Positions 1,305-15,077 of a DNA stretch of 64,000 nucleotides are shown here, piece after piece. Under the pieces are notes generated by a model. It was given only the letters and a program-made list of their open reading frames with translations, was not told the origin of the DNA and searched no databases. The first letter of the stretch is position 1. Each line of letters starts with the position of its first letter. Position numbers and translations under genes: made by a program. The DNA comes from Naegleria gruberi (taxonomy: Eukaryota). The DNA lies in NCBI GenBank assembly GCA_000004985.1, contig GG738897.1; one strand, 5' to 3'.

Positions 1305-1385
1305 CCCTAATAAAATGTGATCTTAAATTCAAACTATATAGTGTAGATTAAACTTTTGCTTAATACATATAGTTATAAAAAGAAG

Positions 1386-1456
1386 TAGGAAGACAGGGAA
1401 TCGAACCCTGATCTTAGGAACCACAATCCCATGTTCTACCACTGAACTATCTCCCT
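1386..1456 (-). tRNA. tRNA-His (anticodon GUG), 71 nt, no intron
   Basis: The reverse complement folds by hand into a cloverleaf. Acceptor stem AGGGAGA/TCTTCCT has 7 bp with one G-T. D arm is GTTC-AGTGGTA-GAAC. Anticodon stem TGGGA/TCCTA with loop TTGTGGT gives anticodon GTG. Variable loop is 4 nt. T arm CAGGG-TTCGATT-CCCTG carries the canonical TTCGA. The discriminator is A73 and no G-1 is encoded, consistent with eukaryotic tRNA-His receiving G-1 post-transcriptionally. Confidence 0.85.
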
Positions 1457-8705: not shown

Positions 8706-9911
8706 TTACAAAGAATCATCAATTAGATTAGGTAATTGTTTCAAAATATTTCTGGCACCATTGTCTCCAATATTGAAACGAATTTTGAGGTAAGTCAATT
8801 GGTTCATTTCAGCAATATAATTGGCTCCTTTCTTATTAATATTATTAGAATTAATATTAAGACTAGTCAACTGCTTCATTTCGCTAATGCATTTAGCTCC
8901 TTCGTCTTGAATACTGTTACAACTAATATCCAGACAAGTTAATTTTTTCATTTGACTGATAAATTTAGCTCCTTCTTTACCAATATTATTGTGTCCAATA
9001 TTAAGATTGACCAATCGATTCATTTCACTGATAAATTTTGCGCCTTTTGCACTAATACCATTATTAGCAACATTCAGATCAGTTAACAATTCAAGTCTAC
9101 TTAAATATCTTACGTCATCTCCTAATATATTATACTTGGCATTAAGATAGGTCAATTCTTTCAATTCACCCAAATATTTAGCTCCTCCATTAATATTATT
9201 GCATTCAACATCGAGGTGAGTTAATTGCTTCATTTCACTCAAATATTTCGCCCCCACTTCACCAATATAACAGTAAACCATGTCGAGAGTACGTAATTCT
9301 TTCAATTCCTTTAAAAATTTGACTCCTTCACTTCCAATATGATTACTATTAATATTAAGACAAGTCAACTGTTTCATTTTTCCAATATACTGAGCTCCTT
9401 TCTCCCCAATCATGTTGTTACTTATATTTAAATTAGTCAATTGCTTCAATTTCCTCAAATATCCAACACCTTCATCTCCAATCAAATTAATACTAATATC
9501 CAAATTAGTTAAATGTTTCAGTTGACCAATATATTTGCAATGACCATTTTCAAAAGTGTTTTCACTGACATTCAGTGTACTTATATCTTTCATTAAATTA
9601 AATAACTGGCAATCGAATGCAATTATCCTATTCCTTCTATTCACTGTCAAACTTTGAATATTTTGTAAAAATTGACCTTTTAATTTCATGTCATTTTCAC
9701 AATACAAGGAAAGTTTTAATTTTTTCGAAATGTTTGCAAATTGTGAAGAAACTAAAGTGCAAGTCGTGACAATAAATTTAAAATCATCGAGGAAGGAAAG
9801 AATTTCATAGAGCACATCATTAGAAAAGACGGAATTGGAAAGTTTCTTCCTTCTTGTATCCGAAAGTTGGACGAATCCTTCGGTTATTGCATCTAATTTT
9901 CGTTTACTCAT
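8706..9911 (-). CDS. F-box-like / RNI-type (24-residue) leucine-rich-repeat protein (401 aa)
   Basis: The start is a true ATG. N-terminal F-box-like VLYEILSFLDDFKFIVTTCTLVSSQF. About eleven tandem 24-aa repeats of the form LTxLNIxxNxIGxEGAKYIxEMKQ (ribonuclease-inhibitor-type LRR). Convergent with the 7674..8621 gene, with stops 84 nt apart. Confidence 0.7.
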   Translation of the reverse strand: MSKRKLDAITEGFVQLSDTRRKKLSNSVFSNDVLYEILSFLDDFKFIVTTCTLVSSQFANISKKLKLSLYCENDMKLKGQFLQNIQSLTVNRRNRIIAFDCQLFNLMKDISTLNVSENTFENGHCKYIGQLKHLTNLDISINLIGDEGVGYLRKLKQLTNLNISNNMIGEKGAQYIGKMKQLTCLNINSNHIGSEGVKFLKELKELRTLDMVYCYIGEVGAKYLSEMKQLTHLDVECNNINGGAKYLGELKELTYLNAKYNILGDDVRYLSRLELLTDLNVANNGISAKGAKFISEMNRLVNLNIGHNNIGKEGAKFISQMKKLTCLDISCNSIQDEGAKCISEMKQLTSLNINSNNINKKGANYIAEMNQLTYLKIRFNIGDNGARNILKQLPNLIDDSL

Positions 9912-10207
9912 TTTTTTTGTTTTATTTTTAATTAAAAATCAATTTCCGTTTACAATCTTTTAATTAAAATATTATTAAACAAGAAAATTAAAGAAAATTG
10001 AAATTTCACATCGGAGAATCTTCGGAATTTCAAAAAACACGTTTTCACAATTTTCAAAAACCTTCACAATAGCTATTTTTGATCTTTTTCAATATTGCAC
10101 TTTACAAATCCTAAATTCAATTCAAAATTGTTGACCAATTAAAAATTTCTCCGCTTACAATAAAAAAAAATTCAAAAAAAAATAGAAAAACACAAACTGT
10201 ATGAAAA

Positions 10208-11611
10208 ATGCACCTTTTCAAAAGCAAGAATCCATCCAGAATTGTCCCGACCATTGTTTTGTTGGCACTACTACTATTCATCATCATTATTTGTTTTTCT
10301 GCATCTGTCTCTTGTGAAAAGTTGTTTCCCGCCAAATTGTTAAATATTGCCAAATTGCAACATGAGAATAGTTTAACAATTATGCTCGATAATTCTACTA
10401 TTATTATTGAAGCAAATAATACGACAGGTGTGAATGGAACTGCAGATTCAGTCCTTTCTCAGATAATTACTTCAACCTATTTCACAGCATTTGTTTCGTC
10501 CACTTTCGCATCCATTATTGCCATTCTAATAACCTTGGTCATTGAAAAATTTGGTGCTCAAATAGGTGGAATTATTGGCAGTTTACCAACGACTGTTTGC
10601 TTTGCAAGTGTTGGATTTGCATTCCAATTAGATAACCGAAAGGAAAGTGAAATTTTATCAAATGACGAAAGGACACATATATTACTGCAACAATTATTTG
10701 TAATTCCATTGGCGATTTTTTGTAGTTTTTCGTTTTTGGTGGTGTGGAAGTTTGTGCCTGATTTGTTGAATCGTTTCGGATATTTTAAAAAGATTGAGGA
10801 AATTGAAATTAAGGGAAATGAAGAATTGGAAGAATTGGAAAGGCAAGAGAATGTGGATAATGAAATTCAATCATCGAGTATGAATAGTTTGAATTCGGTG
10901 GATGAGCAAGGAGAGGAAAATTTGGAAATGAATGTTCATTTAAACGAAACTATTCAAGAAACCATTGCTGTGGAAAATAACCATGTCAATAATGAAGAAA
11001 ATTCAAAACTGGAAAGAAAAAAGCATTATTTAAAGCTTTTCATTATTTCAGTATGTTCAGTATTAGTCTGGTTTAGTTTGGCTTCAATTGTTGTACTTGT
11101 TACAAAGCTAGTCAACGTTCCTGATCCTGTCTTGATTGGAGTGAGTTGTGCATCTGTTGTAATGGTAGTGTTATCAAGTATTATTTTCAATTGGAAAGTT
11201 AAGGTTCAGTCAGGAACATCTACCAAAAAGGGAATTTCACTTGTCTTACTTGCCTTACGAGGAATTTTCACATTTTCAATTGTTTTCATTTCCATTGTTT
11301 TGAGTGGCTTTAAATTCATTGTAGTTTCTGGATTATTGAGTGTATTTCCAATCATTTTCCTTTCCACTCTAATTTCCCTTTGGCTCTCAAGTGAAGAATT
11401 GACCACAAGCTCTGCCTCCTCAATGATGATGGGAACTTCATCTATTTCTCTATTTGCAATGATCTTTTGTTCGTGTGTCATTTATCATCTCAATATTTTC
11501 TTGGCACTCCTTATTGGATTTGTTACAAGTGTAGCTCTCTACAGTATTCCTTCGTATTTTTATGTGAGATGGAGAAAGAGTGTTGCCATGATGCAAATTG
11601 GTTCAAAATAA
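10208..11611 (+). CDS. hypothetical multipass membrane protein (467 aa) with internal duplication and acidic central loop
   Basis: ATG start. An N-terminal signal/anchor, then two blocks of 3-4 hydrophobic helices each. They are separated by an E/N-rich hydrophilic loop (EEIEIKGNEELEELERQENVDNE...). Confidence 0.5.
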   Translation: MHLFKSKNPSRIVPTIVLLALLLFIIIICFSASVSCEKLFPAKLLNIAKLQHENSLTIMLDNSTIIIEANNTTGVNGTADSVLSQIITSTYFTAFVSSTFASIIAILITLVIEKFGAQIGGIIGSLPTTVCFASVGFAFQLDNRKESEILSNDERTHILLQQLFVIPLAIFCSFSFLVVWKFVPDLLNRFGYFKKIEEIEIKGNEELEELERQENVDNEIQSSSMNSLNSVDEQGEENLEMNVHLNETIQETIAVENNHVNNEENSKLERKKHYLKLFIISVCSVLVWFSLASIVVLVTKLVNVPDPVLIGVSCASVVMVVLSSIIFNWKVKVQSGTSTKKGISLVLLALRGIFTFSIVFISIVLSGFKFIVVSGLLSVFPIIFLSTLISLWLSSEELTTSSASSMMMGTSSISLFAMIFCSCVIYHLNIFLALLIGFVTSVALYSIPSYFYVRWRKSVAMMQIGSK

Positions 11612-11644
11612 GATCTTTCCCTACAACATTCACCTATTTAACAT

Positions 11645-14600
11645 TTATTGATAATTCATAATTTGATACTTGTTGAGGAATAAACCAATTCTTTCAACAG
11701 TACTCTTGTATTTGTCCATAACAACTGGATACTTGTTTGTAATGACAGCAACAAATTTGTGAACAATGGAAAGTGAGGCCAATTGTTTGTGGAAAATATC
11801 ATTATTGTGGAGTGAGAAACCTTTAGAAATGGCTTGATTTTCAATTTCTTCCAATTGTTTAAAGTACATTACCAACAAGTATAAAATTCCCAAATACATA
11901 TATGATACATCGATGGATTCTGTTGGAATTTGGGAGATGATATCCTTCATTTGATCAGCATATTGGAACATGACTGAAGTGTACTGTAATTGATCTGTTG
12001 TTGAGCTTTGATAAAGTCCTTGATTACACATAGTCTCGTGCAACATTAAAATACTGCAGGAAAGAGAGAATAAATCAATGAGTAAAGATAATGGTGATGC
12101 CAAAACAGCTTCTTGATTTCCAGTGTACATTTGCATTCTTGCCTTTGTTTGTCCCTTAATCTTCTTTCTGAGAAGGAGTGAAAGTGTGAGATAAATCTTG
12201 ATATTTTCTGAAGACAATGGTTGTGTGGTGATGGTAATAATTTCATTCGGTATAGTACCAGTGGCATGCAAGTAACTTGTGAGCATGGTCATACCAACAA
12301 AAGATCTGAATGAAATTGTACAATCATCAGGAAGACAAACAGAGTTCAAAGGTTGATTTCTAGCTTGAACAGGTTGAGTAAAATTGACCAAACCATTAAC
12401 GTAATCCAATCCTCTATCCATAATAAATTGAATTTCATCATATTTGAATCCAACATAAACTCTATACTTCATCAATAACATGATTTGATTTGGAACCTTT
12501 GCAAAGACTGAATTTTCATGAGTGAGACCACCAGCATCTTCCTCATCTGAAGAAGCCATACAATTAATATAGGTTTGACTCATGTAATTTGGTGAATATT
12601 TTGTGAGAACACCATCAGCCAATCTCAAATACCTCTTTGAACCTGCCAAGTTTCCAACCGACAATAAATAATGAGCAAGAACAAGATTTCTAGCAACAGA
12701 GTTGGTAGAGTTGATGGTAAGAGATCCATTATTCAAAAGGGATGTCAAGGAATTATCTGGTAAAGGTGGCAATAACAGTTCAGATTTGTGATAAGCCATA
12801 TCAGCTTCAACACTATTGCCCATCACGAGTGCAGTAATGGCATGAATAGCATAGAGAAGTGACATGATATCATTGCCAAAGACTGAACTCATGGCTTCAG
12901 TGCCAAATAATACAGAATCAAAAACTTCTTGTGGAACCCAAGAATAACCAAGTGAAATGTATCTAAAATAGAAATCAAAATATGCTTTTCTAAAGATTGA
13001 AGCATTCATAACAATATTTTGAGTTGAAGCGAATGACATGTTTTGATTTCCAAATAACATATTATTATCCAAATTCATCAACATTGTTGGTACATTTGGA
13101 TTGGAAGTTCCAAGAATATTAATGTGATCTTGAGTAATTTCCTTCTGTTGATTCATCAATAGACCTTGTGAAATGATGGAACTGATGGAAGAGTTGATAG
13201 CATCCATATTGTTTTGATTATTGTTGAAGAAAATAGTTTGATTATCTGGATGGAAAGTATTGTTAGTTTGATTGTCCATCATTTGATGTTGTTGATGCTG
13301 TTGATGATGTTGCTGGATGACAGATTTTGTAGGAGTAGATTTCTTGTTCGATTTCTTTGCCTTCCTTGGGAATGAATAATTTTCAAATGAGCTATCTTGA
13401 TTTTGTTGCATTGAAGAGTCGGCTTGTCCCATGTGAGACTTGGAAGGAGATGTTAATTTTGAAACGGAATTTCTTTTTTGTACATTGGATGTTTCACATG
13501 AACTCTTTCTCTTCTTTTCTGTTTTGGTGTTTTGAGAATTGGATCCACCTGCTTGCCATCTGAAGGTGAAAATTTCAAAAGCGTTAGCTGTTTCCATTTC
13601 ATTTCCACTGGATCCACTAGTTGTACCAGCTGTTGAGCTTGTTGTTGAAATACCTCCACTAGTGGCTGTTGAAATGTTGGAAAAGGTTGAATCGACTGAA
13701 CCTCTCCTAGCTAGTAAATTGAGAGTTCCTGGATTCGTAATTGGTGTCCTCGAGGATGTGAAAAAACTACCTGTTGAACCACCTCCAGTGACCATAGTAA
13801 TACTGGAAACATCATTTCCTGCAGGTACAGGAACAGCTCTCTGATAAACTCTTCTCTGCTTCTTTGGAGTTGTGTAAACACATTGTAAACCTTGCTTTTC
13901 ACAATAGCTGCATTGAGGTAACTTTCTGTCGCTAAAGATAACATCAATGGACAAATAAGGAGTAATAATTTCCAATCAAGATTAATCGTTTGGTTGCAAA
14001 ATATGAAACTTACCATCGTTTGTGTCTTTCTCTGCAACGAGTGCATGCAATTGGGTGCAAGTTTGAACCTGGATTTTCATCGGAGGTTTGTTGACTTGCA
14101 GAATTATCATTCTCCATTTGAGAAGTATTATTGTTACATGTAGTTGTAGTATTATTATTATTGCTATCAGTATTACTAGAATTTTGTTGTTGCTGTGATG
14201 ATGATGATGGTTGGCTACTACCATTAGCAGCAGCAGTCATCAAGTATGCTTGCAAACTTGAATCACCAGCAGCAGTAGCTGTTTGAGAAGCTCCAACACT
14301 TCCAATTAAATTATTAGTATTATTATTTGGTGGGAGTGAATGCAAATTGGAGTCTTTTTTAGTAGTGTTGGTGTTTGTGGTTGTGGAAGACAAACCCGTT
14401 GGCACCTGTGGATGACTCGAGGAGGTTTGAAAGGATTCTGAAATTATCATGGCATCGGAAAGATTCATAGCCGTTACATGTTGATTGTTGTTGGTGTTGG
14501 TATTGGGCAGCAAACCTTGTGGAAGAATCGCCGAGTTTGATGGTTGTTGATGGTGTTGTTGTTGTTCCGAAAGTAATTGTTGTTGTTGGTGATGATTATT

Positions 14601-15077
14601 ATTATTATTATTTGTATTATTATTAACATTGTTTGGAGGTGGTGTTGAAGTTTGGGAGGAAAAAGACAAGAGGAATGAATCAAAATTAGAAGACATGTCA
14701 TTGCTCTGGCCGAATATTTGATTACCTGTTGTTGTTGTTGTTGCATTATTTGCTGATGAGGAAGTTATTGTTGTATTTGCTGTTGTTGTTGGAGTAAAGA
14801 AACAATCATGAAGCATGTGATGATTGCCACTTCCACTACTAACGTTATCGGATATGAGGTGTTCAAACTTTGGTTGATTTGATTGAGAAATATTGGAAGC
14901 TTGTTGGAAAAGTGCCGCCTGTTGAAAGATTAGTTTGGAAAGCATTTCATCATTCGTGTTCTGATTGATTGTCGAGGAAGAGGAGGAGGTTGAATTCATG
15001 AGTGAGGATACAACAATTGATGATGCATCAAATTCTTCTTCTGGTGAGGAGGAGGTCATTCTATCTGAACCAAGCAT
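11645..15077 (-). CDS. Zn(II)2Cys6 binuclear-cluster (GAL4-type) transcription factor, ~1116 aa, 2 exons: 14014..15077 and 11645..13931, intron 13932..14013
   Basis: Exon 1 ends ...PIACTRCRERHKR-tg and exon 2 begins c-gacagaaagttacctcaatgcagctattgtgaaaagcaaggtttacaatgt. The spliced product reads ACTRCRERHKRCDRKLPQCSYCEKQGLQC, an exact CX2CX6CX6CX2CX6C zinc cluster. The 82-nt intron gtaagtttcatatttt...tatctttag is in phase 2. The remainder has long N/Q/S/T-rich low-complexity tracts and a C-terminal globular region. Confidence 0.7.
14540..14650. repeat. coding trinucleotide microsatellite (TTG/ATT-type; encodes poly-Q/poly-N on the minus strand)
   Basis: Visible runs tgttgttgttggtgatgattattattattattatt inside the Zn2Cys6 gene. 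Similar AAT/CAA-type runs occur in the 24825..28724 gene (e.g. 25420..25480). Confidence 0.6.

What the first reader, a model, noticed from the sequence alone, without database searches (positions are those of the whole stretch)
13926..14020. Fungal-type Zn2Cys6 cluster split by a phase-2 intron
The six-Cys DNA-binding motif (CX2CX6C-X6-CX2CX6C) is only revealed after removing an 82-nt intron that separates Cys3 from Cys4. Neither track ORF alone shows the motif. Zn2Cys6 factors are classically considered fungal but do occur in Amoebozoa. The intron position inside the zinc cluster is a useful phylogenetic character. The large N/Q-rich body fits a transcription activator.
Basis: partly seen in the sequence, partly recalled or inferred. 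Interest (0 to 1): 0.5.

Follow-up and report, generated by a model that had tools for sequence, protein, structure and literature searches.

The report
Intron-split zinc-cluster regulator gene in Naegleria
The split six-cysteine motif is real, but it belongs to an already annotated Naegleria gruberi gene for a Gal4-type zinc-cluster transcription factor, so the only new point is that its tail folds like the fungal regulatory domain.

Summary
On the minus strand, removing the 82-nt GTAAGT...TTTAG intron (14013..13932) joins TG|C. This restores Cys3 of CTRCRERHKRCDRKLPQCSYCEKQGLQC, which scores 37-43 bits against Pfam Zn_clus (cut-off 21). It is the only one of about 89,000 possible GT..AG joins in the window that gives a six-Cys motif, and 14 simulated windows gave none.

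The spliced 1116-aa product is 100% identical to GenBank XP_002672531.1, 'GAL4 domain-containing protein [Naegleria gruberi]'. The organism is therefore a heterolobosean, not an amoebozoan, and the gene model is already public. A 2014 review already reported 71 Zn2Cys6 proteins in N. gruberi.

The intron sits at exactly this codon position in the N. lovaniensis, N. fowleri and an environmental orthologue (91, 128 and 41 nt, with poorly conserved sequence). Paralogues carry introns at three other sites in the cluster, so the position marks the orthogroup, not the family.

Verdict: an ordinary, already annotated gene of low interest, with a modest side result on domain architecture.

The parts
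14014..15077 (-). Exon 1: ATG at 15077, codons 1-354, plus the first two bases (TG) of the Cys355 codon. It encodes the low-complexity N-terminus and Cys1-Cys2 of the cluster.
   Evidence: The two-exon model translates to a protein 100% identical over 1116 aa to XP_002672531.1.
14073..15077 (-). N-terminal low-complexity region (aa 1-335; 57% N+Q+S+T), poorly conserved among orthologues.
   Evidence: Composition. Orthologues cover only 64-70% of the query, towards the C-terminus.
13932..14013 (-). Spliceosomal intron: 82 nt, phase 2, GTAAGT donor, TTTAG acceptor, 28% G+C. It interrupts the Cys3 (C355) codon as TG|C.
   Evidence: An intron sits at the same codon position in N. lovaniensis (91 nt), N. 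fowleri (128 nt) and an environmental relative (41 nt), with intron identity 28-55% against 66-93% in the flanking exons.
13880..14045 (-). Zn2Cys6 binuclear-cluster coding region, Cys1 (14045-14043) to Cys6 (13882-13880), intron included. The cysteines are C345, C348, C355, C362, C365 and C372.
   Evidence: Pfam PF00172 at 37.1-43.5 bits against a cut-off of 21. Gap-free alignment to the Lac9, Hap1, Ppr1, Gal4 and Put3 DNA-binding domains in the PDB. Coordinates.
11645..13931 (-). Exon 2: third base of the Cys355 codon through the TAA stop (11647-11645).
13553..13585 (-). Conserved motif NAFEIFTFRWQ (aa 471-481), followed by KKRK (aa 494), in the otherwise low-complexity linker. It is shared with several paralogues.
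   Evidence: Alignment. Function unknown; a nuclear localisation signal or interaction strand is only a guess.
11648..13018 (-). C-terminal all-helical domain (aa 660-1116), shared with Naegleria/Willaertia zinc-cluster paralogues. It is probably a divergent middle homology domain (Cep3/Gal4-type regulatory domain).

Best explanation
This is the annotated two-exon Naegleria gruberi gene XP_002672531.1 / D2VTU3, which encodes a 1116-aa Gal4-type zinc-cluster protein.

Shown here:
- The 82-nt intron is a genuine spliceosomal intron. It has been kept at the same phase-2 position inside the Cys3 codon in N. gruberi, N. lovaniensis, N. fowleri and an environmental relative.
- Splicing is needed to make the six-cysteine Zn2Cys6 DNA-binding module.
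- The protein has a low-complexity N-terminus, the cluster at aa 345-372, a low-complexity linker, and a 450-aa folded helical C-terminal domain. Sequence searches found this domain only in a multi-gene family of Naegleria/Willaertia zinc-cluster proteins.

Inferred:
- The cluster binds two Zn2+ and reads DNA as fungal Gal4-family factors do.
- The protein is a sequence-specific transcription regulator.
- The helical domain is a very divergent counterpart of the fungal middle homology domain (about 0.65 likely). It would then serve regulation and/or dimerisation, as in Cep3. No obvious coiled coil follows the cluster.
- A family-invariant His (H352) sits where I recall Gal4 having Lys18, the residue that reads CGG. 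The half-site may therefore differ from CGG.
For: Splice and motif. Uniqueness among about 89,000 possible joins, with none in 14 simulated windows.

Identity with the public N. gruberi protein.

Intron conservation: the intron site is the same in L001 (N. lovaniensis), L002/L003 (N. fowleri) and L004 (environmental). The base after the acceptor AG is C or T, giving Cys either way. Intron lengths and sequences differ while the flanking exons are conserved. The independently annotated N. lovaniensis and N. fowleri proteins contain the same spliced peptide.

DNA-binding domain: gap-free match to solved fungal Zn2Cys6 domains, best hit Lac9 (1cld) at E=2.9e-5.

C-terminal domain:
- Family restricted to Naegleria/Willaertia.
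- Confident AF2 model.
- Cep3 chains are the only Foldseek hits with TM above 0.4.
- The paralogue P0005 gives Fungal_trans at E=0.015 over profile positions 1-117 and is homologous to the family profile (hhalign probability 99.2%).
- The CeGAL paper describes Cep3 as the only solved MHD structure (PMC10141177).
Against: - No transcript data were available, so the junction rests on comparative and annotation evidence.
- No Pfam Fungal_trans hit reaches the cut-off for this protein or any relative.
- The family profile does not hit Cep3 by sequence. Its only significant PDB hit (E about 7e-6) is a 75-residue TPR-like stretch of IFIT1; the rest have E of 0.17 or worse.
- Foldseek E-values are all above 0.1.
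- DNA binding, zinc binding and a regulatory role are untested.
Confidence: 0.85

Rival explanations
1. The six-Cys pattern is a chance product of picking a convenient GT..AG pair, and the two ORFs are unrelated or non-coding.
Against: It is the only one of about 89,000 possible joins that gives the motif, and 14 simulations gave none. The Pfam hit is well above the cut-off. Four orthologous loci restore the same Cys codon at the same place. The product is identical to an annotated protein.
Confidence: 0.01
2. The gene is fungal DNA, either assembly contamination or a very recent transfer, rather than a resident Naegleria gene.
For: The domain family is overwhelmingly fungal. Scazzocchio (PMC5611559) attributed the barley Zn_clus entries in Pfam to fungal contamination.
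Against: The window is 33.6% G+C and carries N/Q-rich low-complexity coding sequence. Orthologues with the same intron exist in three Naegleria genomes, and paralogues in Willaertia. The profile search found the C-terminal domain in no fungus among 1.84 billion representatives. An ancient transfer into a heterolobosean ancestor remains possible. That concerns origin, not identity, and it is compatible with the best explanation.
Confidence: 0.02
3. The protein is not a transcription factor. It is a structural DNA-binding subunit like Cep3 of the yeast CBF3 kinetochore complex, its closest structural match.
For: Cep3 is the top structural hit.
Against: Cep3 tops the list probably because it is cited as the only solved middle homology domain (PMC10141177), not because of a specific relationship; sequence identity is 8-11%. 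The Naegleria/Willaertia family has many paralogues per genome, which fits a regulator family better than a single-copy kinetochore subunit. From my own knowledge, CBF3 and point centromeres are confined to budding yeasts.
Confidence: 0.04
4. The C-terminal helical domain is a lineage-specific TPR-like invention unrelated to the fungal middle homology domain. Naegleria would then have borrowed only the zinc finger, as Scazzocchio suggested.
Against: Cep3 is first in three structure searches, with alignments about 70-100 residues longer than any other hit. The paralogue's weak Fungal_trans match starts at profile position 1, exactly at the start of the domain. The domain order, cluster first and helical domain second, matches the fungal one.
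Confidence: 0.3

Closest known systems
Fungal Gal4-family Zn2Cys6 DNA-binding domains (Gal4 1d66, Lac9 1cld, Hap1 1hwt/1pyc, Ppr1 1pyi, Put3 1zme; Pfam PF00172)
   Same: The cysteine spacing CX2CX6CX6CX2CX6C is the same as in Gal4. The Pro before Cys4, the basic residues between Cys2 and Cys3, and the aromatic residue after Cys6 are all present. The alignment is gap-free.
   Different: The host is a heterolobosean. The cluster lies 345 aa from the N-terminus rather than at it. His (H352) is invariant in this family at the position I recall as Gal4 Lys18, in the signature CR.RHK[KR]CD. No obvious coiled coil follows the cluster (by eye only).
CeGAL architecture (Zn2C6 + middle homology domain / Fungal_trans PF04082), with Cep3 as the cited only solved MHD
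   Different: Sequence similarity falls below Pfam thresholds; the best is 14.9 bits against a cut-off of 23, in a paralogue. The CeGAL pair is described as fungal-specific (PMC10141177).
Naegleria/Willaertia zinc-cluster paralogues (e.g. NAEGRDRAFT_80888, NAEGRDRAFT_53162, C9374_012995, FDP41_011341, W. magna ABK040_007719)
   Same: They share the HPIAC..CR.RHK[KR]CD[RK].LP signature, the PKK tail and the C-terminal helical domain.
   Different: Only 15-28% identity in the C-domain. Their introns in the cluster are at other sites: phase 1 in the Cys1 codon, phase 1 in the Asp codon after Cys3, and phase 0 three codons after Cys3.
Non-fungal Zn2Cys6 proteins listed by Scazzocchio 2014 (Dictyostelia 1-2 per species, Capsaspora 7, Fonticula 2, Ectocarpus 24, N. 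gruberi 71)
   Same: This gene presumably counts among the 71 reported for N. gruberi (PMC5611559).
   Different: That review treats the Naegleria proteins as quite different from fungal ones, sharing only the finger. The fold evidence here suggests that at least this subfamily also shares the regulatory domain.

Membership tests
Zn2Cys6 binuclear cluster domain (Pfam PF00172, Gal4-type) | Six cysteines spaced CX2CX6CX5-12CX2CX6-8C | tested here: met
   CTRCRERHKRCDRKLPQCSYCEKQGLQC at aa 345-372 after splicing.
Zn2Cys6 binuclear cluster domain (Pfam PF00172, Gal4-type) | Profile HMM score above the curated gathering cut-off | tested here: met
   37.1 bits for the full protein and 43.5 bits for the domain alone, against a cut-off of 21, covering profile positions 2-38 of 39.
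Zn2Cys6 binuclear cluster domain (Pfam PF00172, Gal4-type) | Co-linear similarity to experimentally solved members, including the Pro before Cys4 and the basic Cys2-Cys3 loop | tested here: met
   Gap-free phmmer alignments to Lac9 and Hap1 were printed; Ppr1, Gal4 and Put3 also hit with matching co-linear ranges (E from 2.9e-5 to 0.04).
Zn2Cys6 binuclear cluster domain (Pfam PF00172, Gal4-type) | Binds two Zn2+ and recognises specific DNA (typically CGG half-sites) | not testable with these tools
   This needs metal analysis and DNA-binding assays. A family-invariant His sits at the position I recall as Gal4 Lys18, so CGG reading should not be assumed.
Zn2Cys6 binuclear cluster domain (Pfam PF00172, Gal4-type) | Linker plus coiled-coil dimerisation element immediately after the cluster | not tested
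   No coiled-coil predictor was available. By eye, the segment after the cluster (VYTTPKKQRRVYQRAVPVPAGND...) is Pro/Gly-rich and not heptad-like.
CeGAL / middle homology domain (Pfam Fungal_trans PF04082) | Profile HMM score above the gathering cut-off | tested here: not met
   No hit for this protein or its orthologues. The best in the wider family is paralogue P0005 at 14.9 bits against 23, E=0.015.
CeGAL / middle homology domain (Pfam Fungal_trans PF04082) | All-alpha fold like that of Cep3, the cited only solved MHD | tested here: met
CeGAL / middle homology domain (Pfam Fungal_trans PF04082) | Zn2C6 cluster N-terminal to the helical domain in the same polypeptide | tested here: met
   The cluster is at aa 345-372 and the helical domain at aa 660-1116. 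The order is the same in the paralogues.
CeGAL / middle homology domain (Pfam Fungal_trans PF04082) | The eight conserved MHD sequence motifs (Poch 1997) | not tested
   No fungal MHD alignment could be obtained, so no profile-profile comparison with PF04082 was possible.
Cep3 / CBF3 kinetochore subunit | Single-copy subunit acting with Ndc10, Ctf13 and Skp1 at point centromeres | not tested
   The partners were not searched for. The many paralogues per genome argue against this role.
Naegleria/Willaertia zinc-cluster + helical-domain family (unnamed) | Significant match to the family C-domain profile, plus the HPIAC..CR.RHK[KR]CD signature | tested here: met
   The profile search found 17 proteins, 12 of them at E<=1e-10. 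Signature alignment. All named members are Naegleria or Willaertia.

The most novel reading that the evidence does not exclude
The Zn2C6 + middle-homology-domain pair ('CeGAL'), described as the signature fungal-specific transcription-factor architecture, exists as a whole in Heterolobosea. It would form a multi-gene family in Naegleria and Willaertia whose regulatory domain has diverged beyond Pfam detection. Naegleria would then not merely have borrowed the zinc finger. Either a complete fungal-type regulator gene was transferred into a vahlkampfiid ancestor and then expanded, or the two-domain architecture predates the split of these eukaryotic supergroups.
Probability: 0.6. Interest if true: 0.45.

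Novelty: already known. Interest (0 to 1): 0.25.

Why it matters
The finding as reported carries little weight. The gene model, its splice and its GAL4 domain are already in GenBank and UniProt, and the Zn2Cys6 expansion in Naegleria gruberi was described in 2014.

It is a clean example of a DNA-binding domain that ORF-only gene callers lose. The Logan, ENA and JGI calls for the orthologues start inside the intron or downstream of the cluster and carry no precomputed Zn_clus annotation. The same class of error is documented for fungal genes (PMC10141177).

The side result is that the C-terminal domain looks like the fungal middle homology domain. This bears on an open question noted by Shelest 2017 (PMC5415576): are non-fungal zinc-cluster proteins sporadic transfers from fungi, or remnants of an ancient eukaryotic family? 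It also gives a concrete hypothesis for what these 71 Naegleria proteins do.

Tried and rejected
- **Zinc-cluster segment search.** The search for homologous proteins with the 88-aa segment returned 'no candidate shares three words', although the query is part of P0001.
- **Family alignment search.** The search for homologous proteins with alignment A2 returned only two orthologues. The word index appears to miss this family.
- **Metagenome scans.** One scan used the orthologue alignment and one used a degenerate DNA pattern for HPIAC..C[RK]..H[KR][KR]C. Both found nothing. The pattern does match the window and loci L001-L004, including the JGI metagenome contig. These negatives therefore say nothing about distribution. 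The A2 alignment was too divergent for that tool.
- **AlphaFold database fold search.** The afdb50 library was unavailable, so fungal Gal4-family models could not be compared.
- **N. gruberi paralogue loci.** Loci for P0001, P0005, P0013 and for W. magna P0006 are not on record. Intron positions in N. gruberi paralogues could not be read.
- **Sequence links to the MHD.** Pfam scans of 14 family members gave only sub-threshold hits. The family profile against PDB sequences hit only an IFIT1 TPR stretch.
- **Non-coding RNA in the intron.** The Rfam scan of the window found only the tRNA, so nothing is embedded in the intron.
- **Regulated intron retention.** I considered and rejected this. The immediate in-frame stop after the donor in N. 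gruberi and the environmental locus L004 is absent from N. lovaniensis and N. fowleri.

Full report
**1. The observation**

The feature lies on the minus strand. An ORF from the ATG at 15077 runs to ...CAC AAA CGA TG at 14014. It is followed by GTAAGT; without splicing the reading frame gives ...HKRW and then a stop. A second ORF continues from 13931 to the TAA at 11647-11645.

Removing 14013..13932 (82 nt, GTAAGT...TCTTTAG, 28% G+C) joins TG|C. This creates a Cys codon and an in-frame CDS of 3351 nt (1116 aa). The CDS contains CTRCRERHKRCDRKLPQCSYCEKQGLQC at aa 345-372, which is CX2CX6CX6CX2CX6C. The intron is phase 2 and lies inside the Cys3 codon itself.

Pfam Zn_clus (PF00172) scores 37.1 bits on the spliced protein and 43.5 bits on the isolated domain, against a cut-off of 21. 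The exon-1 peptide scores nothing. The exon-2 ORF gives a partial 24-bit match to profile positions 14-38.

As a chance control I enumerated every GT..AG join of 30-300 nt on both strands of the window, about 89,000 joins. Exactly one produces a six-Cys motif across the junction, and it is the proposed one. Fourteen second-order Markov simulations of the window produced none.

**2. What it is**

The spliced protein is 100% identical over its full length to EFC39787.1 / XP_002672531.1 / UniProt D2VTU3, 'GAL4 domain-containing protein [Naegleria gruberi strain NEG-M]'. The window is therefore N. gruberi (Heterolobosea), not an amoebozoan. The exact gene model, including this splice, is already public.

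Neighbouring ORFs encode LRR, F-box/LRR, RGS, pyridine-nucleotide oxidoreductase and ABC-transporter proteins, and there is a tRNA-His. This is ordinary eukaryotic context.

**3. Comparative support for the intron**

Orthologous loci were fetched from four sources:
- N. lovaniensis (L001, annotated gene);
- N. fowleri (L002 and L003; their ORF product clusters at 90% or more with FDP41_010954);
- a JGI metagenome contig (L004).

In all of them exon 1 ends ...CGA/AGA TG, followed by GTA(A/T)GT. The intron ends AG and is followed by C or T and then GAT/GAC. The intron therefore occupies the identical position, and either third base restores Cys.

Intron lengths are 82, 91, 128 and 41 nt. Intron identity between species is 28-55%, against 66-93% in the 90 nt of flanking exon on each side. 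Exact exon mapping of the annotated N. lovaniensis protein confirms a 91-nt phase-2 intron after CDS nt 1049. The annotated N. fowleri protein contains the same spliced peptide. Three separately annotated genomes thus give the same junction. No transcript data could be consulted.

**4. Is the intron position a phylogenetic character?**

It is, but only at the orthogroup level. Exon maps of annotated paralogues, together with an environmental locus read by eye, show three other sites within about 14 codons:
- phase 1 in the Cys1 codon (N. lovaniensis C9374_012995; W. magna ABK040_003818);
- phase 0 three codons after Cys3, at CD[RK][KT]|LP (C9374_012995; W. magna ABK040_007719);
- phase 1 in the Asp codon right after Cys3 (L006: TGC G|gtatgt...cag|AC). 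This is 2 nt downstream of the window's site.

None of the four paralogous loci examined (L005-L008) shares the window's site. Fungal and dictyostelid genes could not be compared. The literature notes that introns in fungal Zn2C6 coding regions are common enough to cause widespread annotation loss of the domain (PMC10141177).

**5. The rest of the protein**

Residues 1-335 and 386-659 are low-complexity (57% and 47% N+Q+S+T). Residues 660-1116 are 42% hydrophobic and 52-58% identical among orthologues.

A profile of this C-terminal region was searched exhaustively against 1.84 billion representative proteins. It found only 17 proteins. Every one that carries a name is from N. gruberi, N. lovaniensis, N. 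fowleri or Willaertia magna. Most also carry an N-terminal Zn2Cys6 cluster with a shared signature, HPIAC..CR.RHK[KR]CD[RK].LP.C..C......C.Y..PKK.

Pfam recognises nothing in this region at its thresholds.

According to the CeGAL paper, Cep3 is the only solved structure of the middle homology domain (MHD, Pfam Fungal_trans) of Gal4-family factors (PMC10141177).

One N. gruberi paralogue (NAEGRDRAFT_80888) gives a sub-threshold but co-linear Fungal_trans match. It scores E=0.015 and 14.9 bits against a cut-off of 23, and profile positions 1-117 align from the very start of its C-domain. That C-domain is clearly homologous to the family profile built without it (hhalign probability 99.2%, E=1.2e-19, 336 columns).

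**6. How it most likely works**

Shown: splicing is required to assemble the six-Cys module. The module aligns without gaps to the DNA-binding domains of Lac9, Hap1, Ppr1, Gal4 and Put3.

Inferred from established knowledge of the Gal4 family: the six cysteines bind two zinc ions, and the Cys2-Cys3 loop contacts the DNA major groove.

At the position I recall as Gal4 Lys18, the residue that reads the CGG triplet in 1d66, this family has an invariant His (H352 here). The preferred half-site may therefore differ. No heptad-like segment follows the cluster, so dimerisation, if any, may go through the helical domain as in Cep3. This is inference. The low-complexity N/Q-rich segments could act as activation or condensate-forming regions, which is speculation.

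**7. Comparison with what is known, and novelty**

Scazzocchio (2014) already recorded 71 Zn2Cys6 proteins in N. gruberi. He remarked that they look quite different from the fungal ones, as if the organism had taken up only the finger (PMC5611559). Shelest (2017) notes that the patchy non-fungal distribution has no agreed explanation, with both repeated transfer and ancient origin possible (PMC5415576).

The finding as stated is therefore already known. The fold evidence here suggests that at least this Naegleria/Willaertia subfamily shares the whole cluster-plus-MHD architecture with fungi. This is a modest refinement that awaits profile-profile and structure-database confirmation.

**8. Verdict**

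The lineage, the phylogenetic value of the intron and the 'N/Q-rich body' need correction. Interest is low (0.25), because this is an annotated member of a documented expansion. The most novel reading not excluded is that a 'fungal-specific' two-domain regulator family is present in Heterolobosea. I give that about 0.6 probability and moderate interest.

Noticed in passing
L005 1501-4749; L007 1001-3080; L008 1001-4634; L006 about 1150-1230: Paralogous Naegleria/Willaertia zinc-cluster genes carry introns at three other sites inside the cluster coding region: phase 1 in the Cys1 codon, phase 1 in the Asp codon after Cys3, and phase 0 three codons after Cys3. With the window's site this makes four distinct intron positions within about 14 codons.
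   Followed up: partly
L006 about 1165-1215: In this environmental paralogue the intron (TGC G|gtatgt...ttcag|AC) lies exactly 2 nt downstream of the window's site (TG|gtaagt...tag|C). This could be intron sliding or an independent gain.
   Followed up: no
P0015 (N. gruberi NAEGRDRAFT_50095, 1646 aa), not in the window: The annotated model looks fused or mis-spliced. It has a complete cluster at aa 184. Further downstream, in the stretch just before the C-terminal domain, it has 'FPIACVNCRSRHKKKGRHNN', the first half of a cluster joined directly to the post-cluster tail. The N. lovaniensis relative P0017 has the full CRGRHKKCEKNYPSCAQCIKRGVECSYRSPKKKGRHN. The second half of the cluster seems to have been spliced out by the annotation.
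   Followed up: no
P0017 / P0028 (N. lovaniensis C9374_004643 and C9374_004642), not in the window: Two adjacent N. lovaniensis gene models (423 aa and 404 aa) appear to be halves of one gene. The N. fowleri counterpart FDP41_001333 is a single 1005-aa protein in the same 90% cluster as the second half.
   Followed up: no
L002 2111-5346; L003 139-2484; L004 3180-5237: Prokaryote-style gene calls on these eukaryotic contigs (Logan, ENA, JGI) break the gene at the intron. P0003 starts inside the intron, P0027 appears to be exon 1 alone, and P0004 starts after the cluster. None of the proteins listed (P0003, P0004) carries a precomputed Zn_clus annotation.
   Followed up: yes
window 13553-13585 (-): A conserved NAFEIFTFRWQ motif, followed by KKRK, sits in the low-complexity linker about 100 aa after the cluster. 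It is shared with several paralogues (FEIFTFKW, FQVVSFRV, YKVYKFKL, YEVTKFKI). Its function is unknown.
   Followed up: partly
window 1385-1456 (-): A tRNA-His (GTG) gene. It is the only tRNA found by ARAGORN and the only Rfam hit in the 64 kb.
   Followed up: yes
window 10208-11611 (+): A convergent 467-aa ORF with a hydrophobic, membrane-like sequence and no Pfam hit. It ends only 33 nt from the stop codon of the zinc-cluster gene, so the 3' ends are tightly packed.
   Followed up: partly
window 8706-15077 versus L001/L002/L004: Local gene order differs. In N. lovaniensis and N. fowleri (and, for the upstream AAA_5 gene, the environmental contig L004) the orthologue lies between an AAA_5 gene and a NUDIX/DUF924 gene, followed by a C1 peptidase. 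In the N. gruberi window the downstream neighbours are the membrane-like ORF and LRR proteins.
   Followed up: partly
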